A DNA stretch of 64,000 bases from an uncultured Armatimonadia bacterium (lineage in GTDB: Bacteria > Armatimonadota > Zipacnadia > CAVVLO01). The stretch covers positions 896,001 to 960,000 of the forward strand of contig CAVVLO010000002.1 in NCBI GenBank assembly GCA_963749155.1, given 5' to 3'. Both the position numbers and the translations under genes were made by a program. Below the pieces are notes generated by a model. It was not told where the DNA came from and did not search any database. It worked only from the letters and a program-made list of their open reading frames with translations. Position 1 is the stretch's first letter, and each line of letters starts with the position of its first letter. Of this stretch, positions 1 to 21,198 are shown one piece after another.

Positions 1-1
1 G

Positions 2-2095
2 CACAGGATTCACCTTGCCGGCAAGCCTGCCCACATATTGGGTCACAAGCGGCGTACTGGTAAAGGGATCCCAGTGCAGGTTCGTGCCAAATATCGGCGC
101 GAATTCTGTCTGGCCGGACTCCGGCGTACCGATGCGACGCAGCAAAGCGCTCGCGGCGATATTAAGTTCGGAGCCAGCGCCAAGCACCTCAATCGGCACG
201 TTACCGGCGTTCAACACTCGCAGGTATTCGTCCTGGGAGAAGCGGTAGGGCCCATAAGGCGCAGTCGCATCGACCCCTGGCGAAACGAGGCCAAGGTCGA
301 TGGTGTTTTGATCGGTATCCGCCGAGAAGACCTGCGGTACAGAGACGCGCAGGTTGACCAGGTCATAGTCTTCACCCAGAGCGACATTCTGCTGTCCATA
401 AAGCGGAGCCCCACAGATGGGACATTCACCAGGATGCTCCGAGGCGTCTACTTTTTCGCCGCAGAAGGGACAGATCATAAAGTCGCCCGAGACTGTGAAG
501 TCGTTATCGCCAACGCTCGACAGGCCATCTCCAAGCACGTCCGAGAAGGCGCGCAGGCTGCCCCAATAAGCGGCCGGGACTCCTTCAGAGGCCAGAAGCT
601 GTGATATGGCTGAAGAACCGGCTGTATAATTCAGGCCATAGGCATCGCCGCTGGGCGGCTGGAAGTTGGGCACTCCAATGCTTACCCTGATACTCATTGC
701 GCCCCGGTTCTCGACCCTCGGCAGGTTCGGGTTGGTGGCACTTGCACCCTGGGTTGGATCCATCGGATTATCAGCATAAGTCGCATCAGCCTCAACTCGG
801 CTGTTGCCCCAACCACTCCAGACAGTCCACACCTCGGGCGAGACGGTAACATCCTGCCTGGTGAGCGGCACGGGCTGTTCCCAGTTGCCGGCATTACCAG
901 GATACGGCCAGGGGATCTCGGACGTAGCCAGTGACTTGGCCAGGCTATACTTGACTTCAGTCACATTGGAATTGCCGCCATCGCTCCAGGTATCAAAGGT
1001 GAAGCGGGTGGAAATATCCTCGGCATCGGTGCCAGTCCGCACTTCCAGACGCAAACTGTCGATAGCAATTGTGACGCCAGCCAACTGGTTGAAACGCGAA
1101 CGGCCCGCGTCATAATCTCCGTCATCTTCGAAGCAAAGCAAATCATACTGGGTGGCTGTATCAAAGCTGATAGTCCAGTGGCGGGTATGCATATCGATAC
1201 TTCCGCTGGCATCAGGCTGTACCCAAAGGCGCACATGGGCATTGCCCGGGCCATCCAGTTTCACCGGCATCGTGAAATAGGAAGCTTCCCGGTTTTCGAG
1301 CCGGATCCACTTGAGCTCGCTGCGCGCGCCCGGCCGCACTCCAGTGTCGTCCTGCGAGAAGGTCGTGATATCCACAAAGGGATCGGCATTTACGCGCGTA
1401 TTGGGATTGCGCAGGTCGAAGAGTTCGCTTATCTGCTCTACTGGCCTGTCGTTGGCACCGGGATTACCGTTTGGCTCGTCATAGTAATAACCAGGTGTAT
1501 CTACGCTACTGACAAAGAAGTCTGTCTTCAGCTCCGGCCAGTAGTCCCACCAGAACACGGTATCATTCGGGTCGGCGAAGGGATACATATACTCTGACTT
1601 CACATACCCAACATGGCCCTCAGTGCCAGCCCTTCGGAAAGCAGAACCTGCCTGCGGTGGCATCACAGTCGGGTCGGTCGGGTAGATGAAAGGCCCTGCG
1701 CCAGTTACGTTGATATAGTCATCTTCAGGCCTGGCTGCGCCTTGCGGTGGGGCCAGGAACCGCTGACCAGGCCGAGTGATGATATCTCCGCCTCCAGGCA
1801 GTGTCTTGCTGAAAGGCGCAAGCGTGGCGCCTGGCACTCCCCCAACAGGGGGTATCTGCGCGCCTGGCTGGTTGGTGTAGAAGACATAAAAATCTCCACC
1901 TGTCGGCCAGAGAGTAGCCGCCGCGCCGCGGTCACGCACCATAAAACTGACTTCATTTACATAGATGTTTGCCGAAGCGCCCATTGGCGCGTTAAGGTCC
2001 AGGTTGACCGTTACCCCGGGTATCAGATTGAGATTGGCGTAGGAAAGGCCTCCTGGATCGAAAAACATATCCATCCACATATAGCCATCAGAACC
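2..2095 (-). CDS. C-terminal continuation (open to the window edge) of a giant exported protein of the pilin cassette; contains a CxxC..CxxC zinc-ribbon-like motif
   Basis: Manual translation: the minus frame is stop-free from 2146 to base 2 (GSDGYMWMDMFFDPGGLSY...ICPFCGEKVDASEHPGECPICGAPL...AGKVNPV). It is absent from the ORF track because no stop lies in the window. It joins ORF 2088..3257 by a +1 shift near 2094-2096. Confidence 0.85.
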
Positions 2096-3248
2096 CAGTG
2101 GCTGTGTAGACAAAAATATCCGGGAAGAAAGGTGGTAGACCCGGAATCAGCATGGTGAGAGTGACATTATAGACAACCGGCTCCCAGGCCTGCGTGTCAG
2201 GGCCAGAGAACCAGGCGGGCAATTCGCCATTCAGGTCTGCAGGCGACAGATTCGCGAAACCAGGATCTGCCGGGTCAACCAGCTCGGTGTAAAGGGCCAG
2301 GTCAGGTTCCCACAAGGCGCCTGTGGTGTTGTCAACACGCACCGATACGAACTGGTCATTGTCATAAGTAGCGCCAGCGTGGGTGTCGGTTTCCCATATG
2401 CTTCCGATACCGGCATATTCATAGCCAAGACCATGTGGGCCAGTGCCACCTGGCGTTGGATACAGCAACACATAGGCATTTTCGTGTTCGTCGCCTGCCG
2501 GCGCATCCAGGAAACGCACAAACCAGGGCATTGCCTGATGGGTCACAGGATGCTCCGGACTAGTAGGAGTGATTACATTATTAGTGTTTACAAGCGACAT
2601 CAGGACATTGGCGTCAGCCGTGGCAGTGAGATGCCTGCGAGGCGGGGTCGAGGTCGGCACCATCCCGGGTTGGACCAGTTCAAGGCGTACGCGCGGGTTG
2701 CCCCCTGTAAACTGCCCCCAGATATCGGAGGGATAGAGTTGCTCGTTCTGCAGCCCGTCTCCGGCTGCATCAAAGTCACCAATTGACAGGAAGAAAGGAT
2801 CGCCCGGATGCAGTGGATGCCAGGGCAGCAAGTTGTCGCCGGAGATATTGTAAGCAGTGAAAGTCCACTGGTCTCCATCGGAGGCGAAGACATTGAGCAT
2901 TACCGAAAGCCCATTGCCCACGAGCGGCGTGCCGAGGGCTTCTGTATCGATAACCGGACCAGAAGCCAGGCGCAGAGTCGCGTTGCCGCCATTAACTTCA
3001 ACCTCGTAATCATCTGGCACGAGGCTCTTGGCATCTACGACGCGTAGATACTCGAGGCCTCCAAGGCTCGTGTTGCCGGGGTCGGGCACCGGATAACTAA
3101 GGCGAGGCCTGGAATTGCCTCTCCAGATGGTCCCATTACGGTCCTGACCCAAATCTACTCTCAGATAGGGATCAGCCCCGACCAATGTGGCCAGGCTTGT
3201 CAGCAGGGCCACCAGTATTATCAGTCTTGCACCAAGGCGCTGTATCAC
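2088..3248 (-). CDS. N-terminal part of the giant exported protein (Sec signal peptide), frameshifted at about 2095
   Basis: ORF 2088..3257; the GTG at 3248 has the better-spaced RBS (GAGGGAG). Signal peptide IQRLGARLIILVALLTSLATLVGA|DP; composition rich in D/P/G/T. Confidence 0.8.
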   Translation of the reverse strand: MIQRLGARLIILVALLTSLATLVGADPYLRVDLGQDRNGTIWRGNSRPRLSYPVPDPGNTSLGGLEYLRVVDAKSLVPDDYEVEVNGGNATLRLASGPVIDTEALGTPLVGNGLSVMLNVFASDGDQWTFTAYNISGDNLLPWHPLHPGDPFFLSIGDFDAAGDGLQNEQLYPSDIWGQFTGGNPRVRLELVQPGMVPTSTPPRRHLTATADANVLMSLVNTNNVITPTSPEHPVTHQAMPWFVRFLDAPAGDEHENAYVLLYPTPGGTGPHGLGYEYAGIGSIWETDTHAGATYDNDQFVSVRVDNTTGALWEPDLALYTELVDPADPGFANLSPADLNGELPAWFSGPDTQAWEPVVYNVTLTMLIPGLPPFFPDIFVYTATGF

Positions 3249-3320
3249 TGCTCTCACTCCCTCAGCCGAAACAAACTCGACTCGAGCCGGACCGGCCTTC
3301 AGGCCGCTCCGTGGGCAACA

Positions 3321-6300
3321 CTATCTGCGTATGACGCAGGCAGGCTGCTCGATGGGGTAGGTCTTGGCGTCTTCCGCCAACAAGTTCGGATCAGGCATAA
3401 CTTCCAGGATGACCTTTGCCGGCGCGGCCGGCCCAGTCAACTCGAGCACTTCGCTTGAGCGCATATTCCAGCCTGTTGGGTTGTAGCAGTGGTTCACAAT
3501 CAGGTAGTTATTGCTGTCAAGCTGCTCGGCCCATATGGGCTTGAAGGCCTTCCACGGAGCGCCCGGCCCAGGACCGATATTGTCGACACCTGGATCGGCA
3601 TAATAATCGGCTGCCGTGTAAGACCAGATAAGCTGGTTGGTGATGGCGTCTACCACGAAGACACCCTGAATAAGGTCTTCGAAGTCGGCATCGTTGTTTA
3701 CATACTGGGCTGGGGTAGGCGCGCCGCCGGTCCAGTTGTTTATGTCGCGCTCGTACATCGAGCCGACCAGGATAAGCCGGCCGTCTCGCTGGATGCGCAC
3801 CATCTGGATATGGCCCATCCGGGTCGCGAAGAACATCGGTATAGGTATGGGATGTCCGCTGCCTCCGGCCATGGTAAAAGCTGTACCTGCCGTATATTCG
3901 GCAGCTCCATAAGGCGGTGTGGCCATCATCAGGGGAATCAAAGAAGCTGGATCAAGATTCAATACCCGGTTGATACGGCATACCCGCCCATCATTCTCGA
4001 CCCCTGCCAGCACCTGAAGACTAAGCTGGCTAACCCAGCCGGAACCGGCCATCAGATAATTCACAGTTGTAGGCTTGTTGATGGTCACGGTCGAATACCG
4101 GGCCGCGAAGGGCCGGTCTACTCCAGGCATCAAAGCCCAGGTAGACGAGAGGACGAACGTCGGCGAAGTGATATCTGGCCTGCTTTCGTAGTGGACGGTG
4201 GCAAGCAGCCGGTGGTTGCCCTGATCGGCCACCACGGTAATAAGCAAGTAATCGTCCACAAGCCCATCGCCATTGAAGTCTACAGGCAGCTCTTCCCGGT
4301 CCACGTTAACCGGATCTCTCACATCGAGGATGTCCGAGTTGAAACGCCCAGCATTGTCTACCGGCCAGATGAGCTGACCGCCGCGATCAAACTCGACCAC
4401 GCGGTTGTTGCCCGTATCAGCCACCAGCAAGTTGCCTGTATGGAGGAGCTTCATAGCCTGAGGGCGATTGAAGCTGCGCTCGGCATTGGCGTCCATATAG
4501 CCTGCCGGAGCAACCTCTCGCGTGCCTACGGCTTCCCAGGTGACCTTGCCATTGCCCGCCAGTTCGACGATGCGGTTGTTGTCCGCTATCAAGGTCTCTG
4601 CGCTATACAGACCAACCAGGAAACCACTGTCATAGGTCGCGCCATCGTGCATCTCGGCGGTTGTATAAAGCCCACCCGAGCCAGGTGAAGCAGCGGCGCT
4701 GAAGACCGCCGTCACGCCGGGAGCGCCCATAAGGTTCTCGAAGTAGTTGCGGAAGTTCGCCCTCGGCCAGACATACGGGCGCACGCTGTCCTCGCTCGGA
4801 TCCCATTCCAGAGAAAGCAGCCGGCCGTCATCAGGCACCCCATCGAGGTTGAGATCCTCGCCAGTTGGCGCGGTACCCGTGTGGATGAGGAAGTTGGTCG
4901 CCGAAAGCGAGCCGCGGGTTGGCCCCACATCATAAGGCAGGAAGTGCATCTCCTGATGGGTGGTGCCACCCAGGTCATCGTAAGTAACGAGGACCTTGCG
5001 CCCCTCATAAGGATCGGCGCCCGCATTCAGCTCGATTTTGCCGGTATCTCCATCAACATTCGCGATAACAGCGCTGATATCCACAAGCCCGGTCGGGGTG
5101 TAGACCTCGAGGGTAGTGGCCACACCCGTATCGATTGGATATCGATGGGTCTGTAGCACATAGGGAGTATAAATCCAGCGCGCCAGGTCGGTCTTGGAGC
5201 GCACGACCTCTACACCATCCACCTCAACGATAAGCTCGCGGTTGTAGATGGAGCCGCACCTGCAATCTATCAGATCACCGGTCGCAAGCTCCTTCAACCC
5301 GATGATATTGCCAGCGGCCTTGGCATCGAAGAGGATGACCCCGTTTTCGTAATCCACGACATACTGATCGCCGCGGACGACGAAGGGATTCCCCGGCTCG
5401 AGTGGATCGGGTATCAGGCACTCGACAGTGGAAAGCTCGCTGACACCGACATTCGAGAACTTTATGGCTAGCGGCGCATCGAGTTGAAGCGCGGCGATGC
5501 CGGGCCATTCGAGGCCGGGCAGGCCCCCGCTGACATCCCACCAGTGAGCCTGCATGATGGGCGTCCTGTCGAGCCAGGCCATATTGCCGTCGAGATACCA
5601 GGACTGCAATTCATCACTAGGTTGCAGGCCCATCGATTCGGGATTGAAGGACCAGACAGGCTTGCCTGTCTCCGAATCAAGCCAGCGCCCGTTGGAAATC
5701 GACTCAGGCTGACCTGCGGTTACCGCAGGGCTGGTTGGCGCGAGGGTGCCCAGGGTGGTGACGATGGCATCGCCGCTGCCCATCTGGCGCACCCCGGTAA
5801 AGCTTTCGGTATGCGAGCCACCGCTGCCATAAGTTATATCCCAGTCGCCGCCACTGGCGCCTTCGACCACCACTATACCTGTCAGCGGATCGAAAGTATT
5901 ACTTGCGCGAACTTTTACAGTCTGCGTGCCAACGGTATCAGCGTCGATATCCCGGGTTGTGTCAATCGGCGCCTGCGTAAGCGTAACATGCCTTACAGCG
6001 CCTCCCTGCAGATAATCAAGCTGGACTACCTGCTGGTCATCGGGCGTATCAGGCGTGCGATATATCGTCCGATAGATAGCCGAACAACCGGCAGGCACCG
6101 TCACATCCACACTGCCAGGCCCTGTTACGACAACGCTTAGCCCGTTCGCTTCAACCTTTACAGGCTCGACATGGACATCGCCCAGGCCGCTTGGATCGGC
6201 ATCGAAGCCGAACTCGATTGGCTGGTTGGAGACCCGGTAGATGCCACCGGCGCCATCGGTCCACTTTTCGGGCGTATGAATCCAGTGCATCTCGTTATCT

Positions 6301-8432
6301 ATGGTTGTTCCGGAGCTGGTCGTATAATCAAACCGCACTCTGTGGCCCTGATAGGTGCCGGATATTAGCAAATGGTTGGTCTGGGCCGGGTCGGGAATAT
6401 AGTCCACGCCATCAACCAGCGCTACCCAGTTGCCAGGGGTCATCTCGACTTCTACCGAAGTGGTAGTGTTGCCCTGGCCGCCTTGCCATTCATACACTCG
6501 ATACGCCCAGGCCTTCGTCCAGCCATTGGGATTATCAAAGGTGGGATAATCGTCAAGGTCGATTTCTTCACCTGGATCGATCTGGTAGGTCGTCCCCCCA
6601 TAAGCCGTCAGGGTCAAGGTATCGGTCATTGCGTTGTTGACTTCGCGCCGAACAGCGGCAACGCTCGGAGCAGGGGGCTTGCGCCAGTCGGCTACGGCAT
6701 CAGCCGTGTTGGTAAGAGGCCCGACGTGAGAACGCTTTGCGCTGCCGTCTCCATAGGTGGCAGAAGGATCGGGATACTCCCAGACCAGATCGCCAGTAGC
6801 CAGCTCATAAGCACGGAAGCCCGTTACCTGGGCTGTGGTGAGGGAATCCTCATATTCACAGGCCACGTAGACCACATTGCTGTGTAACACAGGGCTCGAG
6901 ATGGCAACCGGGGTTGGCTCCGAGCCTGGGTTGTCGCCAATAATCTCATCCCAAAGCAACTGGGGCGCATTGAGCGGGTTGGGCCTGGCCAGATAAGCCC
7001 CGATATAGCCTTCCTGTGCCCCTGGGTCTTGCGTGGTGAACACGACAACATCCAGGTTGGGCGTAACTGGTGGCGGGGCAGCCGGATCTTCAACCGTGCC
7101 TACGGCGGGCGAATTATAAAGAGCTACGCCCGGCATTGTGTCAGTCCAGAGGGCATCGGCCGGCGAGCCGGTGACATAATCGGCTACGCCATCATCCGCA
7201 TAACCGTCGTTGTCCAGATCGCCCTTGGGAGCAGCATCAAAGGCTCCCACCAGGGAGTTGCCCACCACATAATCAGGTTCATCGCGCATCATATACACGA
7301 CGCCCTTGTATTCGGTTGGCGTCGACCGCGATGGGCCAGCAAGTGGAGCATACCAGCGCAGCGAAAGAGGCAAGGTCAGATCTTCGATGCTGCTGGCATA
7401 ATGGCGCGGCACAGCGCCCTGCTGGGTCCATTTGCCACTCAGGTTGCAGGAGTTGTAAAGCAGCTTGATGTCGCCGACTGTGCTGTCCGGTGGGGCTGTA
7501 AGGCCTATCTCCATCCAGCTGCTGACATCGCAGAAGACATCGCAGCCAGACATTATTACATTGCCACTGCCATAAGCGCCGCGCACCAGAGTGGCATCTC
7601 CGCCAATCTGCACGACCTGGTGCATCTCCTGCGGGTCATAATCGGTGACCCAGTCGGTGCCCCAGGTGGTATCTCCCATATTGGCTATCTCATAGGTAGA
7701 CAGCTCGAAGGGCGTGGTCAACATAGCGTCGGAAGGGTCCACCGCATATTTCCAGTAGACACCTGGCATACTGGCGCCGCCATCATCGAAGAACTGCAGA
7801 CGCGTGATAAAGCGAGAGGAGTCCTCCACAAAAGTGCCTGACGTATTGTTGTAGCCGATACGCGCGCCGTGGCAGTTGTCAATCCACAAGGTCGCGCCCG
7901 CATCTACGATCTGCTTCAGATACCGCAGGTCGTTGTCGCTGAACACGACCGGATGGTGAGTTGTAATCAGTACCAGGTCGAAGTTGCCAAGTTGGGTAAC
8001 AGTAGAGGCGTTAAGCGGTACTTCCCAATACTGAGGCATCTCCTTGCTTATAAGTCCGCCGGGCGCAGCAAAGGTCCAGGGCTTGTAGAGGCCTGTCATA
8101 CCCCAATAGCCAGCTTGGGAAGCAGGTGTACCGGCGCCTCCTCCTGCGTGACCTCCGTCAAGCCACCAGTCCCAAATCTGTTGCGTGACCAGAATTGGCG
8201 CCAGGGGATTGTCAAAATCCCAGTTGGCTGGCAGGAAGTTGGACCTGCGCATCGCCAGTATGATATTCGGATCAGGGTTCTCCCAGTTGGTCGACTGGAT
8301 AAGCAACTGGCAGACCTTGAACGTATGCTTCTTCTGAGTTGGATAGTTGAAGATTTGCGCCAGGGCGCCGGTAGCGAAGCTAGCCAGCAATCCCATCAAG
8401 ATAAGCGTAATCAGCACGCGCGACTTCTTCAT
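3321..8432 (-). CDS. 1,703-aa exported PilY1-like protein: DUF4159/GATase-like N-domain, PQQ-like and NHL-like beta-propeller motifs, DxDxDG loops
   Basis: Start MKKSRV at 8432 with AGGGGG RBS; signal peptide ...FATGALA|Q; motifs SSPVLHSNVVYV, GDLVWEYP, FNRPQAMKLLHTGNLLVADTGNNRVVEFD, DLDNDG, DLNLDG, DFNGDG; lies directly after the PilX-like gene. Confidence 0.7.
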   Translation of the reverse strand: MKKSRVLITLILMGLLASFATGALAQIFNYPTQKKHTFKVCQLLIQSTNWENPDPNIILAMRRSNFLPANWDFDNPLAPILVTQQIWDWWLDGGHAGGGAGTPASQAGYWGMTGLYKPWTFAAPGGLISKEMPQYWEVPLNASTVTQLGNFDLVLITTHHPVVFSDNDLRYLKQIVDAGATLWIDNCHGARIGYNNTSGTFVEDSSRFITRLQFFDDGGASMPGVYWKYAVDPSDAMLTTPFELSTYEIANMGDTTWGTDWVTDYDPQEMHQVVQIGGDATLVRGAYGSGNVIMSGCDVFCDVSSWMEIGLTAPPDSTVGDIKLLYNSCNLSGKWTQQGAVPRHYASSIEDLTLPLSLRWYAPLAGPSRSTPTEYKGVVYMMRDEPDYVVGNSLVGAFDAAPKGDLDNDGYADDGVADYVTGSPADALWTDTMPGVALYNSPAVGTVEDPAAPPPVTPNLDVVVFTTQDPGAQEGYIGAYLARPNPLNAPQLLWDEIIGDNPGSEPTPVAISSPVLHSNVVYVACEYEDSLTTAQVTGFRAYELATGDLVWEYPDPSATYGDGSAKRSHVGPLTNTADAVADWRKPPAPSVAAVRREVNNAMTDTLTLTAYGGTTYQIDPGEEIDLDDYPTFDNPNGWTKAWAYRVYEWQGGQGNTTTSVEVEMTPGNWVALVDGVDYIPDPAQTNHLLISGTYQGHRVRFDYTTSSGTTIDNEMHWIHTPEKWTDGAGGIYRVSNQPIEFGFDADPSGLGDVHVEPVKVEANGLSVVVTGPGSVDVTVPAGCSAIYRTIYRTPDTPDDQQVVQLDYLQGGAVRHVTLTQAPIDTTRDIDADTVGTQTVKVRASNTFDPLTGIVVVEGASGGDWDITYGSGGSHTESFTGVRQMGSGDAIVTTLGTLAPTSPAVTAGQPESISNGRWLDSETGKPVWSFNPESMGLQPSDELQSWYLDGNMAWLDRTPIMQAHWWDVSGGLPGLEWPGIAALQLDAPLAIKFSNVGVSELSTVECLIPDPLEPGNPFVVRGDQYVVDYENGVILFDAKAAGNIIGLKELATGDLIDCRCGSIYNRELIVEVDGVEVVRSKTDLARWIYTPYVLQTHRYPIDTGVATTLEVYTPTGLVDISAVIANVDGDTGKIELNAGADPYEGRKVLVTYDDLGGTTHQEMHFLPYDVGPTRGSLSATNFLIHTGTAPTGEDLNLDGVPDDGRLLSLEWDPSEDSVRPYVWPRANFRNYFENLMGAPGVTAVFSAAASPGSGGLYTTAEMHDGATYDSGFLVGLYSAETLIADNNRIVELAGNGKVTWEAVGTREVAPAGYMDANAERSFNRPQAMKLLHTGNLLVADTGNNRVVEFDRGGQLIWPVDNAGRFNSDILDVRDPVNVDREELPVDFNGDGLVDDYLLITVVADQGNHRLLATVHYESRPDITSPTFVLSSTWALMPGVDRPFAARYSTVTINKPTTVNYLMAGSGWVSQLSLQVLAGVENDGRVCRINRVLNLDPASLIPLMMATPPYGAAEYTAGTAFTMAGGSGHPIPIPMFFATRMGHIQMVRIQRDGRLILVGSMYERDINNWTGGAPTPAQYVNNDADFEDLIQGVFVVDAITNQLIWSYTAADYYADPGVDNIGPGPGAPWKAFKPIWAEQLDSNNYLIVNHCYNPTGWNMRSSEVLELTGPAAPAKVILEVMPDPNLLAEDAKTYPIEQPACVIRR

Positions 8433-8530
8433 TGGCTTTTCCCCCTGGACCCCACGGGTCAAGGTACAGACGAAGTTCAAGTCCTTCGAGCCTGGCTCGA
8501 AAGCAGCGTCCAGCTAAACTCTGCCAGGAG

Positions 8531-11227: not shown

Positions 11228-11266
11228 ACTTGTGTACTCCTCACTGGAGGCTCCAGGAGAGTCCTG

Positions 11267-12871: not shown

Positions 12872-12886
12872 CTCTTGCTCCCTCGC

Positions 12887-13600
12887 TTAAGGCAATACAT
12901 AGTCGCGCAAGTCGCCCCACTCAAGCGGGGGATTGCTGCGATGATTCTCGCCGGCCGTATAATCAGGTGTTTTCAGCATCCTGACCGACCCATCGAGGAA
13001 CAAAACCAGGTCTCTGGTGCCAGCGGGAGTGTCATACGCCCCCGCATGAAGTTCGCACCAGGTGACCACCGTATTGTCAATTGGAAAACGACTTGCCAGT
13101 TCTCTGGCGCGCTCGGGATCCTCGGCCATAACCGGGATGTCCGGCGCATCAGGCTGGTACTTCCATTCCTCAACACCTGCAGCCAGCCCGTTGGCATCCT
13201 GCAGCATATAGCTGACATAATCCATCGGGACATCGCTGTCATTATGCTGCCTGTCTTCGGGGCAATGCAGATATTGCTTGCCCTTCAGATAACCCATCCG
13301 GTTTTCCGTGCCGGCGCCAGCAAGCGTGGTGTCGAAGGCAAACAGCGCCCACAGTCCAAGCCCGCCTGCCAGCGGATCTCCAGCGTTTATGGTCGGATCG
13401 AAGGGAGGAAAGCCCCCCTCATCCAGCGTGTACATCCGCATCGAGATAGCAATGGCCTGCATATTGCCCATACAGGTCATCCCTCGAGCGCGAGCATTGC
13501 CCCCTTTCGTGAAAACGAAAAGGATTGCCGACAGGATAGCGATGATCGCTATCACCGTAAGCAGCTCGATTATCGTGAAACCTTTACGCTTGTTGCTCAT
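12887..13600 (-). CDS. Prepilin-type protein (DUF1559-like N-terminus; C-terminal H..DG-like motif)
   Basis: KRKG|FTIIELLTVIAIIAILSAILF...TCMGNM...LHCPED...WCELH...DLVLFLDGSVR; alternative GTG start at 13609. Confidence 0.8.
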   Translation of the reverse strand: MSNKRKGFTIIELLTVIAIIAILSAILFVFTKGGNARARGMTCMGNMQAIAISMRMYTLDEGGFPPFDPTINAGDPLAGGLGLWALFAFDTTLAGAGTENRMGYLKGKQYLHCPEDRQHNDSDVPMDYVSYMLQDANGLAAGVEEWKYQPDAPDIPVMAEDPERARELASRFPIDNTVVTWCELHAGAYDTPAGTRDLVLFLDGSVRMLKTPDYTAGENHRSNPPLEWGDLRDYVLP

Positions 13601-13617
13601 ATAGCTCACATCCTGCC

Positions 13618-15165
13618 TTACAGGGCCTCAGGCTCGAGTAGAGTGTCGAGCTGGATGTAGCGGGTCATATCGCGGTCGTGCCAGATAGCCTTCACGCCCA
13701 GCGACAGACCGGTCACCGACAGCAAATCGCCTGCGCCGATTGGCCCGCCTCCCGCGTTCACGATCGTTGCGGTATAGGGAGCAGGACCAGGCGAGATGGT
13801 AAGCTGGCGTGTTTCGACAATCGACGCCGTGCTGGCGTTGTTGTCGTCATCCCACATAAAGCTGACCAGCACGACTTTGCCCGCCTCGCTTCCCGAAAAC
13901 TCCAGGCTAGCGTCAGGGGCGATTGCAGCGAATATATATTCGTTGCCCAGCGGCGCTGCCGCGGTCGTATTGAAGTACTGGGCCTGGGCTCGCTGAGCGA
14001 GCACCGCCCACTCTTCCATCCCGCGGTAGAAGACGCGTATTGGCCGATTGGCCAGCGTGTCCGAGAACAAGACCACGCCGTTCTCGTAATCCACCGAATC
14101 GGGGGTATGCAGCAGGCCATCGTCCAGCGTAACGCCCAGGACGGTAGTCGCCATACCTGGCAGGTCGCCATCGTCCAGGAAAGTTATGTCGGTGCGCATC
14201 TCGCCGTAAACGTCCAGCACGTCGAACTCGCTGAGGATGTGCCAGTCGCGCACGCTGTACGAATAACGCACGAACTGGCCCTGGTCCTCGCCATAGAATC
14301 TCAGCACGCCGCCATCGTCATCCAGGCTGAACTCGGAGTTGGCGGCTGGATTGCCACCTACCTCGGTGAACTGCCTGCTGATGCGGATCGAACTGTCCAC
14401 GATGAACTCAAAGTCCGGAAGGCCTGCCACCGGCAGCATTGTGTCATCGTCATTGGCCGCCAGGGTGAAGGTGCCAGTGTAGGGCACATAAGCCGCGGCA
14501 GCACTGTCATAGTAGATGCAGTTCAGTTCCATATTCCGATCGTAAGGCACTCGGTCGAATCTGGCATAACCGGCACGCTGCCAGTTGACGCTGCCATCGC
14601 CCTGCTCGGCGGTCGTCACATAAAAATGTTGGTAGTCGTGTTCGTCGTCGCGCAAATCGTAGAAGGCATTGTTGACCCGGGTATAAGGCGCCCAGCACTC
14701 GACTGCAGCCCCTACCTCGGCCGGACCAAACAGGTTGTGCGCGACGGAGACAGTAGTGCCGAGAACAGGCGATGGGATTCGGAGCCCCTCGCCTACGACT
14801 TCTCGTACCTCTGTCATATTAGGCCCGAAGCCATCAGGGTCTATATCGGCCAACTTCAACCAGTCAGGCTGGATCTCCCAACCGTTTACCGTCGGGCCAA
14901 GAGCGTTGCCGTCTTCATCCACCACCGGCATATTGGCGGTGGTGTTCTGGATGCCCAGCGGGGCGCGCTCGGGCGCAGCCTCCAGTTGCTGGAGCAACCT
15001 GTCGGCCAGCCTGGTGGCGACGTTACGATTCTGGCCGCTCTGGACCAGGTTCAATCCCATCGGGAATACGCGGAATAACGCGTAGAGCCCAAATACCAGG
15101 ATGAACACTGCCACCAGGACTTCGACCAGGGTCATACCTTTCTGGTTTATCGCCCTATTTCTCAT
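13618..15165 (-). CDS. Large PilV/GspI-like minor pilin (515 aa)
   Basis: Prepilin motif QKG|MTLVEVLVAVFILVFGLYAL, the PilV/GspI pattern. Confidence 0.75.
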   Translation of the reverse strand: MRNRAINQKGMTLVEVLVAVFILVFGLYALFRVFPMGLNLVQSGQNRNVATRLADRLLQQLEAAPERAPLGIQNTTANMPVVDEDGNALGPTVNGWEIQPDWLKLADIDPDGFGPNMTEVREVVGEGLRIPSPVLGTTVSVAHNLFGPAEVGAAVECWAPYTRVNNAFYDLRDDEHDYQHFYVTTAEQGDGSVNWQRAGYARFDRVPYDRNMELNCIYYDSAAAAYVPYTGTFTLAANDDDTMLPVAGLPDFEFIVDSSIRISRQFTEVGGNPAANSEFSLDDDGGVLRFYGEDQGQFVRYSYSVRDWHILSEFDVLDVYGEMRTDITFLDDGDLPGMATTVLGVTLDDGLLHTPDSVDYENGVVLFSDTLANRPIRVFYRGMEEWAVLAQRAQAQYFNTTAAAPLGNEYIFAAIAPDASLEFSGSEAGKVVLVSFMWDDDNNASTASIVETRQLTISPGPAPYTATIVNAGGGPIGAGDLLSVTGLSLGVKAIWHDRDMTRYIQLDTLLEPEAL

Positions 15166-15224
15166 AGGGACTCACCGCTCCTCACACCTGTGCGTTGCCG
15201 AGATTCGGACCGCCCTCAGCCCTT

Positions 15225-15896: not shown

Positions 15897-15944
15897 AGCC
15901 CATTCCTCCATTTGGAGGCTTTAGCGCCTCCGGCTGTTCAAGTT

Positions 15945-15970
15945 ATACCCCGCAGTCCTGGCCGGGAAAC
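15945..15970 (-). promoter_or_regulatory. Putative SigB/SigF-type promoter GTTT-N16-GGGTAT upstream of the pilin cassette
   Basis: Minus strand reads GTTTcccggccaggactgcgGGGTATaac about 50 nt upstream of the start codon, matching the SigB/SigF family consensus. Confidence 0.45.
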
Positions 15971-16014
15971 TCGCACAAGACTCAAAAAATCGCAAAAAAT
16001 GGGAAATAGCCTGT

Positions 16015-16878
16015 TTATTCTAGTCCGTAGAGCTGCATAAAGACTTTCGTTATCTCATCGCCCAGGAATACCATCATAATGCCCGCCCCAGCCAGGAAGG
16101 GGCCAAAGGGGATTATACTGTCCCTTTTCATTTTTCCGGTTGACATCAAAAGTACCGACAGCACCGCTCCAACCAGCACTGCAAGCAGGCTCATTGCCAT
16201 CAAAGCCCAGGTAGCTCCAACTCGCGCGCCAAGCGCCAGCATCAACTTTACATCGCCAAAGCCTAGCGCGTCCTTTTTGAAGACCTTTGTGGCCAGGATA
16301 CCAAGCAGCCAGAAGCTGACGGCCGCAAGCACCGCTCCCCCAAGCGCGCTGATGGGCAGTTGGAATTCCGCCCCGCCCGTCTGGATTGTGATGAGCTGAG
16401 TCACTTTTTCAGGAGCGGTGAACCAAAGGCCAATTTCTCTTGCGAAAGCGGCAAGCCCCGCCACGATGGTGAACTCGTCGGGCAGCAAATAAGTATTGAG
16501 GTCCGCTACGAACGCCCCAAGCAGCGCGGTGCAGAAGATGATATCCATAATAGTTGGAAAGGTCGGGGTCCAGTCTCCCGACGCCAGGAAAACCCCCACG
16601 AAGAGCGCCGAAGTGGCCAGCTCCACGATAGCGTACTGGGCGCTTACCTTCTCGCCGCAATAGCGACATTTGCCCCTGAGGAAGAGCCAGGACAGGACCG
16701 GCACCATATCTTGGCCACGCAATCGGGTGTTGCATTTGGGGCAGTGAGAGGGTGGATTGACTACTGACTCCTCATTGGGCAACCGATAGATGCAGACGTT
16801 GAGGAAACTGCCTACTACCAGGCCAACCACACCCAGGAAAGCCGCGGCGACCAGGCGATAGAATTCAAGATCGTCCAA
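16015..16878 (-). CDS. pilD: Prepilin peptidase / N-methyltransferase (A24)
   Basis: GSFLNVCIYRLP, CPKC/CRYC zinc motif, ADLNTYLLPD, GFGDVKL, IPFGPFL; TTG start at 16878 after GGGGGAG. Confidence 0.95.
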   Translation of the reverse strand: MDDLEFYRLVAAAFLGVVGLVVGSFLNVCIYRLPNEESVVNPPSHCPKCNTRLRGQDMVPVLSWLFLRGKCRYCGEKVSAQYAIVELATSALFVGVFLASGDWTPTFPTIMDIIFCTALLGAFVADLNTYLLPDEFTIVAGLAAFAREIGLWFTAPEKVTQLITIQTGGAEFQLPISALGGAVLAAVSFWLLGILATKVFKKDALGFGDVKLMLALGARVGATWALMAMSLLAVLVGAVLSVLLMSTGKMKRDSIIPFGPFLAGAGIMMVFLGDEITKVFMQLYGLE

Positions 16879-16895
16879 TTGCGTTACTCCCCCCG

Positions 16896-16934
16896 GAACC
16901 AAAAGCGCTTTCCGGCTGGAAAGCGCTTCGGTTC
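16896..16934 (-). terminator. Stem-loop between pilC and pilD (weak terminator or RNA stability element)
   Basis: Perfect 11-bp inverted repeat AAGCGCTTTCC-N4-GGAAAGCGCTT, extendable with GAACC/GGTTC; only a short U run on the minus strand. Confidence 0.5.
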
Positions 16935-16957
16935 GTCTTCAGACTGCCCGAGGCGGA

Positions 16958-18190
16958 CTAGCTGCCGCCGGACAGGTTACCTATGATAGATATCAGTGGC
17001 ATAAACATCGCGATAACGATGAAGCCTACGATACCACCCAGAAGTACGATCATTACAGGCTCGATAGTGGCCGCCAGCGACTCAAGCGCGGCGTCTACCT
17101 CCGCCTCGTAGAACTCGGCGATCTTCTCGAGCATCGCATCCAGAGCGCCAGTCTCCTCACCGATAGCAATCATATGGATGACCATCGGCGGGAACATCTT
17201 GCTGGCTTCGAGCGGACCGGCAATCGGCTCGCCCTCCCGGACACCCGCCCTGGCGTCCATAATCGCATTTTCGAAGATGACATTCTGCACGGCGCCCGCC
17301 GTAGTCTCCATTGCCTGGAGTATCTGAACGCCCGATTCGATCAGGGTCGAAAGGGTGCGCGCGAAACGAGACAGCGCCAGTTGCTGGTTGATCTTCCCAA
17401 AGACGGGCATCTTGAGCTTGAACAGGTCGAAATACTTGCGCCCGAATTTGGTGCGGATGAGATGCATAAAGCCAATGCCGACGATCACTGCGATGGCGAT
17501 GGCGAAATACCACTTGCCCAGGATGAAGTCCGAGGTGGCTTTCAATATCTTGGTTGGAGTCGGCATCTGGTCTTCGCCGACCTCAAGGTCCGTGAACAAC
17601 TGCATAAACTTCGGGAAGATGAAGGTCATAAGGCCGATAACGATACCTGCCGCAACGAACAAAACGACCATTGGGTAGGTCATCGCGCTCTTGACCTTGC
17701 GCCGGAGTTCCATCGAGCTTTCCAGGAAGTCAGCCAGGCGAGCCATGGTCTCGTCCAGCACGCCACCTATCTCACCAGCACGTATCAGACCGATGAAAAG
17801 GGTGGAGAAGACGCGTGGATATTTGCCCATCGAGCGCGACAGCGTGGCGCCGCCCTCAATCTCTTCCCGCACGTCTGCAATTATGGCTTTCAGGTTGGGG
17901 TTTCTGGTCTGGCTCTCGAGGACGGTAAGGCACCGGACCAGCGAGACACCAGCGTTTATCATCGTAGAGAACTGCCGGCAGAAGATGGAAAGGTCCCTCA
18001 GGCCAACCCGGCGGAACATCGAGCCTTTGGCCTTGGACTGGATCATCTTGCCTTTGGTCTCTTTGATTTGCTGGATCTTGATACCAGTCTGGGCTAACCT
18101 GGTTACCAGCTCTTCACGAGTTTCGGCCTCGGCTGACCCCTGGATCTTGCGACCAGTGTCGTCTGTTGCCGTATAGCTGAATACGGGCAT
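16958..18190 (-). CDS. pilC: Type IV pilus inner-membrane platform protein (PilC/GspF family)
   Basis: FCRQFSTMINAGVSL, AGEIGGVLD, KVKSAMTYP, GEETGALDAML, IEPVMIV. Confidence 0.95.
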   Translation of the reverse strand: MPVFSYTATDDTGRKIQGSAEAETREELVTRLAQTGIKIQQIKETKGKMIQSKAKGSMFRRVGLRDLSIFCRQFSTMINAGVSLVRCLTVLESQTRNPNLKAIIADVREEIEGGATLSRSMGKYPRVFSTLFIGLIRAGEIGGVLDETMARLADFLESSMELRRKVKSAMTYPMVVLFVAAGIVIGLMTFIFPKFMQLFTDLEVGEDQMPTPTKILKATSDFILGKWYFAIAIAVIVGIGFMHLIRTKFGRKYFDLFKLKMPVFGKINQQLALSRFARTLSTLIESGVQILQAMETTAGAVQNVIFENAIMDARAGVREGEPIAGPLEASKMFPPMVIHMIAIGEETGALDAMLEKIAEFYEAEVDAALESLAATIEPVMIVLLGGIVGFIVIAMFMPLISIIGNLSGGS

Positions 18191-18244
18191 AATAGCCTCC
18201 TCCGCGCCGCCCAGGAATTAGCTGGGTCTGGCGGCGCTTCCTCA

Positions 18245-19384
18245 CTAGGCAATAAGCTTCTTGAGCTCTTCCGGATTCATCGCCCGGTTGAGGGCATCTT
18301 CGTAGCTTATCTCGCCCGACTGATAGAGGTCGCGCAATGACTGGTCCATCGAGACCATTCCGGCCTCGCTGCTGGTCTGCAAAATTGATGGGATCTGGTG
18401 TACTTTTGATTCCCGGATAAGGTTGCGGATGGCCGCCGTGGCCACCATAACTTCTGTAGCGACAATCCGGCCAGGGGCGCCTACGCGCTTCATTAGCTGC
18501 TGCGAAAGCACAGCGGCCAGGTTGTTGGCGAGCTGGACGCGCACCTGCTCCTGCTGACCAGGCGGGAAAACGTCGATGATACGGTCGATTGTCTCCGAGC
18601 AGTTGTTGGTGTGCAAGGTGGCCAGCACAAGGTGGCCAGTCTCAGCCGCGGTGATAGCCAGTTTGATTGTATCCAGGTCGCGCATCTCACCGACCAGGAT
18701 GACGTCGGGGTCTTCGCGCAAGGCTGATCTCAGTGCCGCATCGAAGCCGCGTGTGTCCTGCCCAAGCTCGCGCTGGTTGACTACGCTCATCCGGTGGGTG
18801 TGGAGATACTCGATTGGGTCCTCGATGGTGATGATATGGCACGACCGCTCGATGTTGACCTGGTTCACGACAGCCGCCAGAGTCGTTGACTTGCCGCTTC
18901 CCGTCGGGCCTGTAACCAAAACCAGGCCACGTGGCTTGCGGGAGAGATCCTTGAGGACAGATGGCAGCTTGAGCTCTTCGATAGTCGGGATCCGGCTCGG
19001 GATGAGTCGGAAAGCGACTGCAACGGAGCCCTTGTCCCGGTATACATTGACGCGGAATCTTGCCGAGTTCTTCAACGAATAGGACAGGTCGAGTTCCAGC
19101 GTACTCTCGAAGCGATGGATATGCTCATCGGTCAGGATATCGTAGATGAGCCTTTGGGTGTCTTCCGGCTCGAGCCGCTCGAAGTTGAGTGGTCTAAGGT
19201 CGCCGTCGACGCGTAGGACAGGTGGTACTCCAACGCAAAGATGAAGGTCGGAAGCATTGCGCTCGACTACTTGCAACAGCAACTCGTCGAGGCTGACGTC
19301 AGCCACTGACATACGCTGGACTTGCTGCCTTTGCAGCCGGGGGACGCCTTGTCCGCCCGTGTTACCTGAGCCGATGCCTGCCAT
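18245..19384 (-). CDS. pilT: Type IV pilus retraction ATPase
   Basis: Walker A GPTGSGKS, EDPIE, LREDPDVILVGEMRD, and the PilT-specific AIRNLIRE motif. Confidence 0.95.
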   Translation of the reverse strand: MAGIGSGNTGGQGVPRLQRQQVQRMSVADVSLDELLLQVVERNASDLHLCVGVPPVLRVDGDLRPLNFERLEPEDTQRLIYDILTDEHIHRFESTLELDLSYSLKNSARFRVNVYRDKGSVAVAFRLIPSRIPTIEELKLPSVLKDLSRKPRGLVLVTGPTGSGKSTTLAAVVNQVNIERSCHIITIEDPIEYLHTHRMSVVNQRELGQDTRGFDAALRSALREDPDVILVGEMRDLDTIKLAITAAETGHLVLATLHTNNCSETIDRIIDVFPPGQQEQVRVQLANNLAAVLSQQLMKRVGAPGRIVATEVMVATAAIRNLIRESKVHQIPSILQTSSEAGMVSMDQSLRDLYQSGEISYEDALNRAMNPEELKKLIA

Positions 19385-19452
19385 CTATGCCTTTGCTCCT
19401 TTATCCCTCTTGCCGAGGAGTAAGCTTTTCAATATTTATCTGACTCGTGGTC

Positions 19453-21198
19453 TTAGGCGTACTGACCAGCTGTTGCGACGCGGCGGACTACCTCTTCTGC
19501 CGTTGTCCAGCCCATAATGACCTTGGTCAGGCCATCTTCGCGCAGCAGTGTCATACCATTGGCCCGCGCGGCTTCACGGACGTCACCAAGCGGAGCGCCA
19601 CGGGCGACCAACTCGGCGATCTCCTCGTTCATCTCCATAAGCTCGAAGATGCCTAGACGTCCCTTATACCCAGTATACCGGCATTGCTCACAGCCTACAC
19701 CGTGGTAGAAGGTTGTCTCGCCATGTACCGCGGGATCGTACTGCAGGCCGATAAGCGCCTCATCATGCGGCTCATAGGGCTCTTTGCAGTTGGAGCAGAT
19801 ACGCCGGCCAAGACGCTGAGCCAGTACGCCGATAACCGAAGCGGCGCAAAGGAAGGGCTCAACGCCCATATCAATCAGACGCGTCATAGAGCTTGGCGCA
19901 TCGTTCGTGTGCAGGGTGGAAAGCACCAAGTGACCAGTAAGTGAAGCGTGGATGGCGATGTCCGCCGTTTCCAGGTCTCGAATCTCACCTACCATCATGA
20001 TGTCAGGGTCCTGACGCAGGAAGCTTCTAAGAGCGGTAGCGAAGGTCAGACCAGCCTTTACGTTCACGGCTACCTGGGCGATGCCTGGCAACTGATACTC
20101 GACCGGGTCCTCGATGGTCATTATGTTGACTTCGGTCGTGTTCAGCTTGTTCAGTACCGAATACTGAGTTGTCGTTTTACCGTGACCCGTAGGACCGGTA
20201 GAAAGCACAATGCCGTTTGGCTGATTGGTAAGCCGTTCCAGCCTGGCCAGGGTGTCGGGCAGGAAGCCCAGGCGATCGAGGCCTACCATCGTGTTCGACT
20301 GGTCAAGGATACGCATAACTATCTTCTCGCCCATCGTAGTCGGGACGGAAGAGACGCGGATGTCGTAGGGCTTGCCTTCAGACACGACGTGGATACGGCC
20401 GTCCTGCGGGACGCGGCGCTCAGCGATGTCCATGTCGGACATAATCTTCAGACGCGAGATCAGCGGCGCGTGAACATGCTTGGGCAGGATGACTTCCTCG
20501 TGGAGGATACCGTCTACGCGGTACCTGACGCGCACATTGCGGCGCTGAGGCTCGACGTGGATGTCAGAGGCCTCCTGTGTGACCGCGTTGCGGATCATCA
20601 GGTTGGTGAGTTTGATGATAGGCGCCTGGGCTGCTACGTCAACGTCGCTGCCCTTTACCGACTCGGCGAGCTCGCTGACTGACCGGCCTTCGGCTTCATC
20701 AACCAGCGTCGAGCGTCGCCCCACATCACTGACGATAGAGTCGATCTCACTGGCCGAGGTTTGTCCGTAGACATTTTGGATGATGGCGTCGATGCTGCCT
20801 TCAAGAGCCAGGGCTGGCTCTATCCGGAGCTGGGTCGCCTGGTTGATGGCGTCGACTGCTTCGATGTCGGTTGGATCGACCATCGCGACGAGAAGCGTCC
20901 CATCTTCGTTGCGCCTTACGGGCACGGCTTTATATTTCTCGGCCATATCCCTGGGCATTACGTTGAGGGCCGACTCGTCAGGCTGCGTGGCGTTGAAGTC
21001 AACGTATGAGACGTTGAGCTGCTCGGCCTTTGCTGCCAGCACGTCTGGCGCCGCGACACCGGCCACATCGACCGCAAGTTGCTCCAGTGACATATTGGTG
21101 TCTCTGGAAGCATTGCGTATCTCGATGGCCTGATCTTCGCTGATGCTGCCTTTCTCAATGAGAATCTGAACGATGTCTTTTCTGCGCTGCAGCCGCAT
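19453..21198 (-). CDS. pilB: Type IV pilus assembly ATPase (PilB/GspE)
   Basis: ASDIHVEP, RVPQDGRI, GPTGHGKTT, LRQDPDIMMVGEIRD, tetracysteine CSNC..CEQC; start MRLQRR at 21198 after GGGAG. Confidence 0.95.
   Translation of the reverse strand: MRLQRRKDIVQILIEKGSISEDQAIEIRNASRDTNMSLEQLAVDVAGVAAPDVLAAKAEQLNVSYVDFNATQPDESALNVMPRDMAEKYKAVPVRRNEDGTLLVAMVDPTDIEAVDAINQATQLRIEPALALEGSIDAIIQNVYGQTSASEIDSIVSDVGRRSTLVDEAEGRSVSELAESVKGSDVDVAAQAPIIKLTNLMIRNAVTQEASDIHVEPQRRNVRVRYRVDGILHEEVILPKHVHAPLISRLKIMSDMDIAERRVPQDGRIHVVSEGKPYDIRVSSVPTTMGEKIVMRILDQSNTMVGLDRLGFLPDTLARLERLTNQPNGIVLSTGPTGHGKTTTQYSVLNKLNTTEVNIMTIEDPVEYQLPGIAQVAVNVKAGLTFATALRSFLRQDPDIMMVGEIRDLETADIAIHASLTGHLVLSTLHTNDAPSSMTRLIDMGVEPFLCAASVIGVLAQRLGRRICSNCKEPYEPHDEALIGLQYDPAVHGETTFYHGVGCEQCRYTGYKGRLGIFELMEMNEEIAELVARGAPLGDVREAARANGMTLLREDGLTKVIMGWTTAEEVVRRVATAGQYA

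What the first reader, a model, noticed from the sequence alone, without database searches (positions are those of the whole stretch)
1..21198. Retractile type IV pilus locus with a cassette of oversized minor pilins and two giant exported proteins
Seen: pilB-pilT-pilC-pilD, then five co-oriented class III signal proteins (about 223, 515, 237, 534 and 898 aa), a 1,703-aa and a >1,080-aa Sec-exported protein. Known: PilV/PilW/PilX (GspI/J/K) plus PilY1 form the pilus tip/priming complex, with these minor pilins usually about 150-350 aa; AIRNLIRE marks PilT, so this is a retractile T4aP rather than a T2SS. Inference: a lineage-specific tip apparatus of more than 5,000 residues, analogous to but apparently distinct from the Verru_Chthon giant pseudopilin cassette. 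It may serve adhesion, cell-cell contact or capture of polymeric substrate. No pilMNOPQ is present in the window.
Basis: partly seen in the sequence, partly recalled or inferred. Interest (0 to 1): 0.82.

Follow-up and report, generated by a model that had tools for sequence, protein, structure and literature searches.

The report
Giant pilus-tip operon of Armatimonadota
This is a complete operon for a retractable type IV pilus whose tip pilins are three to five times the usual size and are followed by two huge exported propeller proteins; it is shared by most of a little-studied, polysaccharide-eating bacterial phylum and is an uncharacterised variant of a known machine, not a new kind.

Summary
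Real and conserved, with corrections. pilB-pilT-pilC-pilD, five pilin-type genes and the 1,703-aa gene are as described. The '>1,080-aa protein' is three frameshifted ORFs here (about 1,660 codons; probably assembly indels; single 1,376-3,590-aa ORFs in relatives). pilM-(N-O-P)-pilQ lie directly downstream, just outside the window. The organism belongs to Armatimonadota. The cassette is phylum-wide, not narrowly lineage-specific: the 898-aa PilX-like pilin matches in 397 of 401 genomes, the two giants in 329 and 322, and both giants are missing together in 64. The 898-aa model resembles Thermus ComZ (pilin plus beta-solenoid, Z 16) with an added jelly-roll insert, lacks Glu5, and appears to supply its own final beta-strand. 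A homologue of the 1,703-aa protein folds as DUF4159 + 8-bladed + 6-bladed propeller with no free C-terminal tail, so it is probably not a PilY1. Best reading: a self-capped T4aP tip trimer plus a dispensable pair of exported propeller proteins, most likely for adhesion to polysaccharide surfaces. Binding and function are untested. Other agents of this scan reported the same operon in at least 7 genomes. New variant of a known kind.

The parts
19453..21198 (-). pilB, extension ATPase (581 aa)
   Evidence: PF00437 E 1.5e-132, MshEN; TIGR02538 629.7 bits, just under its cut-off 675.65
18245..19384 (-). pilT, retraction ATPase (379 aa), AIRNLIRE at residue 318
   Evidence: TIGR01420 497.7 bits over cut-off 319.1; motif
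16958..18190 (-). pilC, inner-membrane platform (410 aa)
   Evidence: PF00482 x2
16015..16902 (-). pilD, prepilin peptidase
   Evidence: PF06750 + PF01478
15225..15896 (-). 223-aa DUF1559-like pilin (major pilin or FimU/H-type adaptor; role unresolved)
   Evidence: N_methyl + SBP_bac_10; conserved position in relatives
13618..15165 (-). 515-aa PilV/GspI-position pilin, about 3x usual size
   Evidence: N_methyl; TIGR02523 PilV hit on residues 8-68, E 5.3e-9, below cut-off; homologues 491-794 aa mature
12887..13600 (-). 237-aa DUF1559-like pilin (FimU/H-type candidate)
   Evidence: N_methyl; weak SBP_bac_10; present between V and W in this class, absent or upstream in many other families
11267..12871 (-). 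534-aa PilW/GspJ-position pilin
   Evidence: N_methyl; assigned by position; homologues 293-740 aa mature
8531..11227 (-). 898-aa PilX/GspK/ComZ-type cap pilin: pilin fold + beta-solenoid + jelly-roll insert (about 557-740) + C-terminal strand
   Evidence: AF2 pLDDT 79.8, pTM 0.86; ComZ 6qvi Z 16.2, rmsd 4.2, 270 aligned; GspK 3ci0_K Z 7.4; no Glu5 in 78 of 78 motif-bearing homologues
3321..8432 (-). giant-1, 1,703-aa exported protein: DUF4159-like domain + 8-bladed BamB/YxaL-type propeller with inserts + C-terminal 6-bladed NHL/YWTD-type propeller
   Evidence: NHL hit; DUF4159 in 5 of 15 homologues; model of a 1,295-aa homologue; signal peptide read by eye
2088..3257 (-). giant-2, N-terminal piece (389 aa, signal-peptide-like start); frameshift follows
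   Evidence: no Pfam hit
1..2113 (-). giant-2, middle piece (991 aa, runs past the window edge; a third 362-aa piece with the conserved C-terminal region lies outside, followed by pilM...pilQ)

Best explanation
The region is the main type IVa pilus operon of an Armatimonadota bacterium. PilD matures the pilins; the 515-, 534- and 898-aa pilins form the PilV/PilW/PilX (I/J/K) priming trimer that starts the fibre and stays on its tip; PilB extends and PilT retracts it through the PilMNOP-PilQ channel encoded just downstream. The 898-aa pilin is a self-capping, ComZ-type subunit: it lacks Glu5, carries a beta-solenoid and a jelly-roll insert, and its own conserved C-terminal strand completes the pilin sheet, the job PilY1/PilC does in trans in proteobacteria. 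The two giant propeller proteins are therefore not PilY1 equivalents but a linked, dispensable accessory pair exported by Sec, most likely docked on the tip or cell surface. Most likely use: attachment to, and pulling on, polysaccharide-rich surfaces. Shown by tools: gene content, order, conservation, co-loss of the giants, predicted folds. Inferred: trimer formation (about 0.85), cis-capping (about 0.8), physical link of the giants to the pilus (about 0.45), glycan adhesion (about 0.45).
For: Complete machinery in one operon. pilB-pilT-pilC-pilD directly upstream of the pilins in 9 of 10 class-level loci and 12 of 20 loci from other families. PilX-like profile matches 397 of 401 phylum genomes. 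Its model aligns best with ComZ (Z 16.2), then ice-binding solenoids (Z 11.6-12.1) and tapirins (Z 8.0-8.5); alignment to GspK spans model 43..898 against chain 29..313, i.e. the last residues align with the end of the pilin fold; the C-terminal LP-x-S-hydrophobic motif is kept in 73 of 91 homologues. PMC13533445 shows that this last strand comes in trans from PilY1 or in cis from the K subunit, and names ComZ-type insertions in systems lacking tip adhesins. Giant-1's last residue aligns inside a closed 6-bladed propeller. Giants co-occur: both found in 314, both not found in 64, discordant in 23 of 401 genomes; in G157 pilM follows the PilX-like gene directly. In Fervidibacter sacchari, pilB, pilT and a six-gene run whose annotation order matches the cassette are among the top rows of the RNA-seq table and vary up to 19-fold between polysaccharides (link by gene order only).
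Against: No binding, localisation or phenotype data exist for any part. The jelly-roll insert scores only Z about 7 against CBM6/35/36, under the level the tool calls informative. Cis-capping is read from alignment end points, not from inspected contacts. V- and W-like assignments rest on position and N-terminal hits below cut-off; their bodies match nothing in Pfam or PDB sequence searches. The giant-1 model is of a homologue only 20% identical in the alignment; giant-2 was not folded. The closest solved relative, ComZ, binds DNA. Fervidibacter lacks the two giants, so its expression data say nothing about them, and baseMean counts favour long genes.
Confidence: 0.55

Rival explanations
1. 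Competence pilus: the ComZ-like pilin and partners form a DNA receptor and the pilus pulls DNA to ComEC.
For: ComZ is the best structural match and binds DNA (PMC6561018, abstract); cyanobacterial solenoid PilX-Com subunits are needed for transformation (PMC13759059, passages); the genome has ComEC and PilT.
Against: All large cassette proteins of the window are acidic (pI 4.3-5.2; family medians 5.1-5.7); DUF4900, the family that rings in Thermus, does not match this genome; extra grafted domains resemble the cyanobacterial PilX-EPS (adhesion) type; the genome has a second T4P locus with small pilins that could serve competence. Not exclusive of adhesion.
Confidence: 0.15
2. The two giants are periplasmic or outer-membrane assembly factors (BamB/TolB-like propellers) that fold, escort or gate the oversized tip through the secretin, not surface adhesins.
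For: Propellers of BamB/YxaL type; in Fervidibacter-named loci the same slot holds 540-590-aa PD40/TolB-like proteins; genes sit between the pilins and pilM; the secretin is split in two genes.
Against: Whole families keep equally large or larger PilX-like pilins without them; giant-2 varies from 1,376 to 3,590 aa and carries variable Golvesin_C, NEW3, DUF11 and CBM5/12-like modules, which fits a surface-exposed protein better.
Confidence: 0.15
3. T2SS-like piston: a short pseudopilus exports the two giants as released or surface-layer cargo.
For: Cis-completed K subunit is also the T2SS arrangement and many T2SS substrates are propellers (PMC13533445); Denise et al. reassigned some Armatimonadetes systems to T2SS (PMC6668835, passage); the 223-aa pilin scores best on GspG, below cut-off.
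Against: pilT sits between pilB and pilC with the AIRNLIRE/AVRNLIRE motif in 19 of 30 loci read; PilM-type platform, not GspL/M; Fimbriimonas has visible fimbriae (PMC4072686, passage).
Confidence: 0.1
4. Giant-1 or giant-2 is a true PilY1 analogue that donates its C-terminal strand to the PilX-like pilin.
For: Position right after pilX-like gene, Sec export, propeller folds, large size.
Against: PF05567 found in 1 of 401 genomes, a 31-residue hit (no positive control among the 14 controls); giant-1 ends inside a propeller; giant-2's tail after the last conserved strands is short and variable; both dispensable in several families.
Confidence: 0.05

Closest known systems
ComZ of Thermus thermophilus (PDB 6QVI; PMC6561018)
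   Same: Pilin fold with a beta-solenoid inserted in the sheet; tip-only geometry; Z 16.2 over 270 residues.
   Different: 898 vs about 518 modelled residues; extra jelly-roll and other inserts; 15% identity; no DUF4900 match; partners V and W also oversized; followed by two giant propeller genes.
Cyanobacterial solenoid PilX, PilX-EPS/PilA12 (799 aa) and PilX-Com (PMC13759059)
   Same: Large PilX with solenoid between penultimate and last strand, extra grafted domains, proposed to replace PilY1 as cap.
   Different: Their PilV/PilW are 158-360 aa; no pair of giant exported propellers is described in the passages read.
FimU-PilV-PilW-PilX-PilY1 / PilHIJK-PilC priming complex (PMC13533445)
   Same: Gene order, Glu5-less last pilin, large exported propeller proteins downstream, PilB/PilT motors.
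   Different: Last strand apparently supplied in cis; giants lack the PilY1 domain and a free tail; two giants, lost together.
Verru_Chthon cassette (TIGR02596-02600)
   Same: Oversized pilin-type proteins in a conserved cassette (description recalled, not read).
   Different: Only N-terminal hits far below cut-off (24.9 vs 256.5 bits for C; 18.3 vs 70 for D); protein A not found in the genome.
Caldicellulosiruptor tapirins (10.1101/359786, abstract start only)
   Same: Cellulose-binding proteins next to a T4P locus; solenoid similarity Z 8.0-8.5.
   Different: Not pilins; monoderm host; similarity limited to the solenoid.

Membership tests
Type IVa pilus | PilB extension ATPase, PilC platform, PilD peptidase | tested here: met
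Type IVa pilus | PilT retraction ATPase | tested here: met
   TIGR01420 over cut-off; AIRNLIRE
Type IVa pilus | PilM and secretin PilQ | tested here: met
   PilM_2 E 3.4e-57, Secretin E 7.3e-41 just downstream of the window
Type IVa pilus | PilN, PilO, PilP | tested here: inconclusive
   ORFs in the right positions, frameshifted in this assembly, no Pfam hit
Type IVa pilus | Identified major pilin and a long surface filament | not testable with these tools
   40 class III motif ORFs in the genome; which is the major pilin is unknown
PilX/GspK cap pilin (ComZ-type) | Pilin N-terminal helix without Glu5 | tested here: met
   helix 9-71; Glu at +5 in 0 of 78
PilX/GspK cap pilin (ComZ-type) | Beta-solenoid inserted before a C-terminal strand that returns to the pilin sheet | tested here: met
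   structural alignments to ComZ, GspK and S. sanguinis PilA reaching residue 893-898; contacts not inspected
ComZ/DUF4900 family | PF16241 match | tested here: not met
   0 matches in own genome; control rings in Thermus and Thermotoga
ComZ/DUF4900 family | DNA binding | not testable with these tools
   only charge was computed
PilV-PilW-PilX priming trimer | Physical heterotrimer | not testable with these tools
   the three exceed the 1,000-residue limit of the complex tool; see Tried and rejected
PilY1/PilC | PF05567 propeller domain | tested here: not met
   no hit on the window proteins or 30 giant homologues; 1 of 401 genomes (without positive control)
PilY1/PilC | PilY1-type fold by structure | tested here: inconclusive
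   top 50 rows are generic 8- and 6-bladed propellers; giant-2 not folded
PilY1/PilC | Free C-terminal donor strand | tested here: inconclusive
   giant-1 homologue ends within its propeller; giant-2 tail variable, not modelled
Verru_Chthon cassette | TIGR02596/02599/02600 over cut-off | tested here: not met
Type II secretion system | No PilT; GspL/GspM platform | tested here: not met
   PilT and PilM present in the operon

The most novel reading that the evidence does not exclude
Armatimonadota share an ancient, retractile glycan-capture device: a self-capped solenoid pilin tip that carries two 150-400 kDa propeller proteins by a docking mode other than PilY1-type strand addition (a tip of about 5,700 residues), with the dozens of DUF1559 pilins supplying variable shafts, so that the pilus serves as the phylum's polysaccharide-foraging organelle.
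Probability: 0.25. Interest if true: 0.8.

Novelty: new variant of a known kind. Interest (0 to 1): 0.55.

Why it matters
It is a near-universal, mostly single-copy marker of a whole phylum, annotated as 'hypothetical protein' and not described in the papers found. It gives a natural test of the 2026 strand-addition model (a cis-completed cap pilin that nevertheless sits beside giant propeller proteins), raises the question of how a tip of 1,900 or up to 5,700 residues passes a secretin, and offers a concrete candidate for how these polysaccharide degraders attach to their food. Cultured members exist, so it can be tested.

Tried and rejected
Complex prediction on the V-like + W-like pair (residues 11-506 and 10-513 of 25-row alignments) gave 'no answer', score 0.00 in both runs, controls not folded; it says nothing either way. 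The trimer and pilin-giant pairs exceed the size limit. The search for related loci with the window's 898-aa protein found nothing and three alignments were not conserved enough. Word-indexed protein searches found 2, 10 and 1 hits; no intact giant-2 from a close strain came up. PDB sequence searches: 0 hits for the PilX-like profile, only N-terminal pilin-helix hits for V and W. Foldseek gave no E<=0.001 match for the 898-aa model and only generic multi-propeller proteins for giant-1; PilY1/PilC chains were not among the 50 rows. ESM Atlas on giant-1 scored 0.75 (PQQ-type propellers), a lead only. PHROGs: nothing informative. Promoter and terminator scans at chance level (8 vs 9.0, 12 vs 14.3). 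A small shared D-Y-x-x-G-x-x-x-F module was found in 14 of 27 W-like, 9 of 26 V-like (seed sets, circular), 3 of 22 giant-1, 3 of 20 giant-2 and 0 of 31 X-like proteins, 0 in shuffles: weak, left as a lead. The idea that a short W-like pilin tracks loss of the giants holds for three families (293-335 aa) but not for G157 (609 aa). No RNA run was laid (RNA shares 0.16 or less). The F. sacchari accessions could not be tied to sequences: no WP accession. The 1,517-aa ORF of G004 is not a giant-2 homologue and was left out of the size range.
Full report
Observation. The window is G000:C2:896001-960000. ORF calling confirms a minus-strand run pilB, pilT, pilC, pilD, five pilin-type genes (223, 515, 237, 534, 898 aa) and a 1,703-aa gene, identified by Pfam and NCBIfam; gaps are 15-118 nt and AIRNLIRE is at PilT residue 318. 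GC is even across the region. Relatives have one ORF there (1,376-2,108 aa in 5 class-level loci, 2,131-3,590 aa in 13 loci of other families). Contigs of related strains span both breaks with exactly one gap each (table 8; the rows naming those gaps were cut from the output), and the neighbouring pilN/pilO breaks are contradicted by contigs of three runs and one run, so assembly indels are likely but not proven. pilM (PilM_2 E 3.4e-57), N/O/P-position genes without Pfam hits, a split secretin and aroC-aroK-aroB follow 196 nt downstream, outside the window.

Taxonomy and range. A homologue from a genome of the same phylum found 15 loci, 12 titled Armatimonadota/Armatimonadetes or a class or order of it and 3 'uncultured bacterium'; the ESM Atlas's two best clusters are mostly Armatimonadota. 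The 898-aa protein alone matched 36 of 40 relatives. A 91-row profile matched 397 of 401 phylum genomes at E<=0.001, six of them weaker than 1e-10 by my reading, mostly one long match each. Giant-1 matched 329 of 401 (E<=1e-20), the C-terminal region of giant-2 322 of 401 (E<=1e-10). Both were found in 314, neither in 64, one only in 23; neither was found in families f18 (21 of 21), f23 (4 of 4), f43 (12 of 12), f36 (7 of 7) or genus g13 (4 of 4). These are related genomes, so a handful of events, and 'not found' may include divergence. Gene order pilB-pilT-pilC-pilD-pilins-PilX-like held in 9 of 10 class-level loci (the tenth ends at a contig edge) and 12 of 20 other loci; PilX-like, giant-1, giant-2 in 13 of those 20; in G157 pilM follows the PilX-like gene directly. 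Mature lengths: V-like 491-794, W-like 293-740, X-like 737-1,314 aa. Other phyla were not searched genome by genome; Atlas look-alikes include Rifleibacteriota (765 aa) and DUF4900/PilX_N clusters of Omnitrophota and Planctomycetota, and 514 representative proteins of unknown taxonomy match at E<=0.001.

The 898-aa pilin. AlphaFold2 with 91 sequences gave pLDDT 79.8, pTM 0.86, a helix at 9-71 and a last strand at 893-897. Best match: T. thermophilus ComZ (Z 16.2, rmsd 4.2, 270 residues), then ice-binding solenoids (Z 11.6-12.1), tapirins (8.0-8.5), GspK (7.4; model 43..898 on chain 29..313) and CBM6/35/36-like jelly rolls on 557-740 (Z about 7, common-fold level). Glu5 is absent in 78 of 78 homologues with the G|Q motif (of 91) and the C-terminal motif is kept in 73 of 91. 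ComZ is a tip pilin with a solenoid that binds DNA (PMC6561018; abstract and introduction read). Cyanobacterial PilX have the same design, up to 799 aa, and are proposed to replace PilY1 (PMC13759059; passages). PMC13533445 (parts 1 and 3 of 8) shows that the last strand of the K subunit's sheet licenses assembly, in trans from PilY1/PilC or in cis. I infer cis-capping here.

The giants. Giant-1 homologues hit DUF4159 in 5 of 15 cases (3 over cut-off) with weak PQQ and NHL hits. A 1,295-aa homologue (residues 96-1295, 43-row alignment) folded at pLDDT 77.8, pTM 0.81 into an alpha/beta domain, an 8-bladed BamB/YxaL-type propeller with inserts (Z 26.6) and a 6-bladed NHL/YWTD-type propeller that includes the last residue. 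Giant-2 homologues: PQQ-type propeller in 7 of 15, Golvesin_C in 5, sub-threshold CBM5/12 in 2, NEW3/DUF11 in 1-2, nothing in 7; the conserved part is the C-terminal 500 residues, to which the window's third piece aligns. The PilY1 domain was found in 1 of 401 genomes as a 31-residue hit; none of the 14 controls rang, so sensitivity is unchecked. Signal peptides were read by eye. In family f43, whose proteins carry Fervidibacter names, smaller PD40/TolB-like proteins fill the slot.

Function. The genome also has ComEC, a second T4P locus and 40 class III motif ORFs. The large cassette proteins are acidic, a weak argument against DNA binding. Polysaccharide catabolism is described as a hallmark of the phylum (PMC11535203; passages). 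In its supplement (searches and one part read) F. sacchari pilB and pilT are rows 6 and 7 of an RNA-seq table that descends by baseMean, and six consecutive genes (prepilin, T2SS protein, prepilin, three hypotheticals; WP_259101758-769) are rows 5-59, co-vary, range 8,127 (chondroitin sulfate) to 155,390 (gellan) for the top one, and are all in the proteome. Their order matches V, pilin, W, X, two exported proteins in f43 loci; the link is by order only (about 0.8). Fimbriimonas is fimbriate and non-motile, and its pili are suggested to serve attachment (PMC4072686; passages). Hence the best reading: a self-capped T4aP tip trimer plus an accessory propeller pair for surface or glycan adhesion (0.55), against competence (0.15), assembly-factor (0.15), T2SS cargo (0.10) and true PilY1 (0.05).

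Novelty. Searches for Armatimonadota with pili, PilY1, pilin or adhesion, and for the Verru_Chthon cassette returned no description of this cassette; PMC6668835 (passages) mentions Armatimonadetes once, for T2SS, and PMC10290634 has no pilus terms in its main text. Subscription journals and bioRxiv supplements are not covered, and the TFF tables in the Fervidibacter supplement were seen only as headers. Each element has a precedent (solenoid PilX, large exported propellers, oversized cassettes); the combination, the enlarged V and W with unmatched bodies, the paired optional giants and the phylum-wide retention do not, in what I found. After my analysis, one search showed 10 earlier findings of this scan in at least 7 genomes with the same reading; they are not independent support, and this finding is a rediscovery within the scan. 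Verdict: new variant of a known kind, interest 0.55.

Noticed in passing
L147:5963-19168 (G000:C5:577963-591168, minus strand): A second type IV filament locus with its own pilB, pilC, small pilins (about 85-175 aa mature), PilM and secretin; its PilX-like gene is broken into pieces, one with an ice-binding-like adhesive domain (PF20597).
   Followed up: partly
L001:7309-9960 and L149:6688-9090: The secretin is split into an N-terminal gene and a 555-aa gene; a second copy with the same N-terminal 70 residues lies on contig C1 beside a tatC-like gene. Six secretin domains and seven PilB/PilT-family ATPases in the genome.
   Followed up: partly
L001:10758-12540: pilN- and pilO-position genes are frameshifted; contigs of three runs lack one base at 12540 and one run has an extra base at 11266, pointing to assembly indels.
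   Followed up: yes
G000 contigs C1, C2, C3, C5: 31 further class III motif ORFs outside the two pilus loci, mostly DUF1559-like and often in tandem arrays of 2-6.
   Followed up: no
L048-L051 (G082), L068-L071 (G168): Two genomes carry two copies of the PilX-like gene; in family f18 it reaches 1,250-1,310 aa mature with no giants nearby.
   Followed up: no
L155-L158: In Fervidibacter-named loci the slot after the PilX-like gene holds two or three smaller exported proteins (540-590 aa PD40/TolB-like, then about 450 aa) instead of the giants.
   Followed up: partly
window:21400-22275 and L001:4417-7229: The operon is flanked by shikimate genes (aroE upstream; aroC-aroK-aroB downstream) in many relatives.
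   Followed up: no
L001:9783-12422: PilN/O/P-position proteins carry long Gly-Pro-Met-rich low-complexity tails.
   Followed up: no
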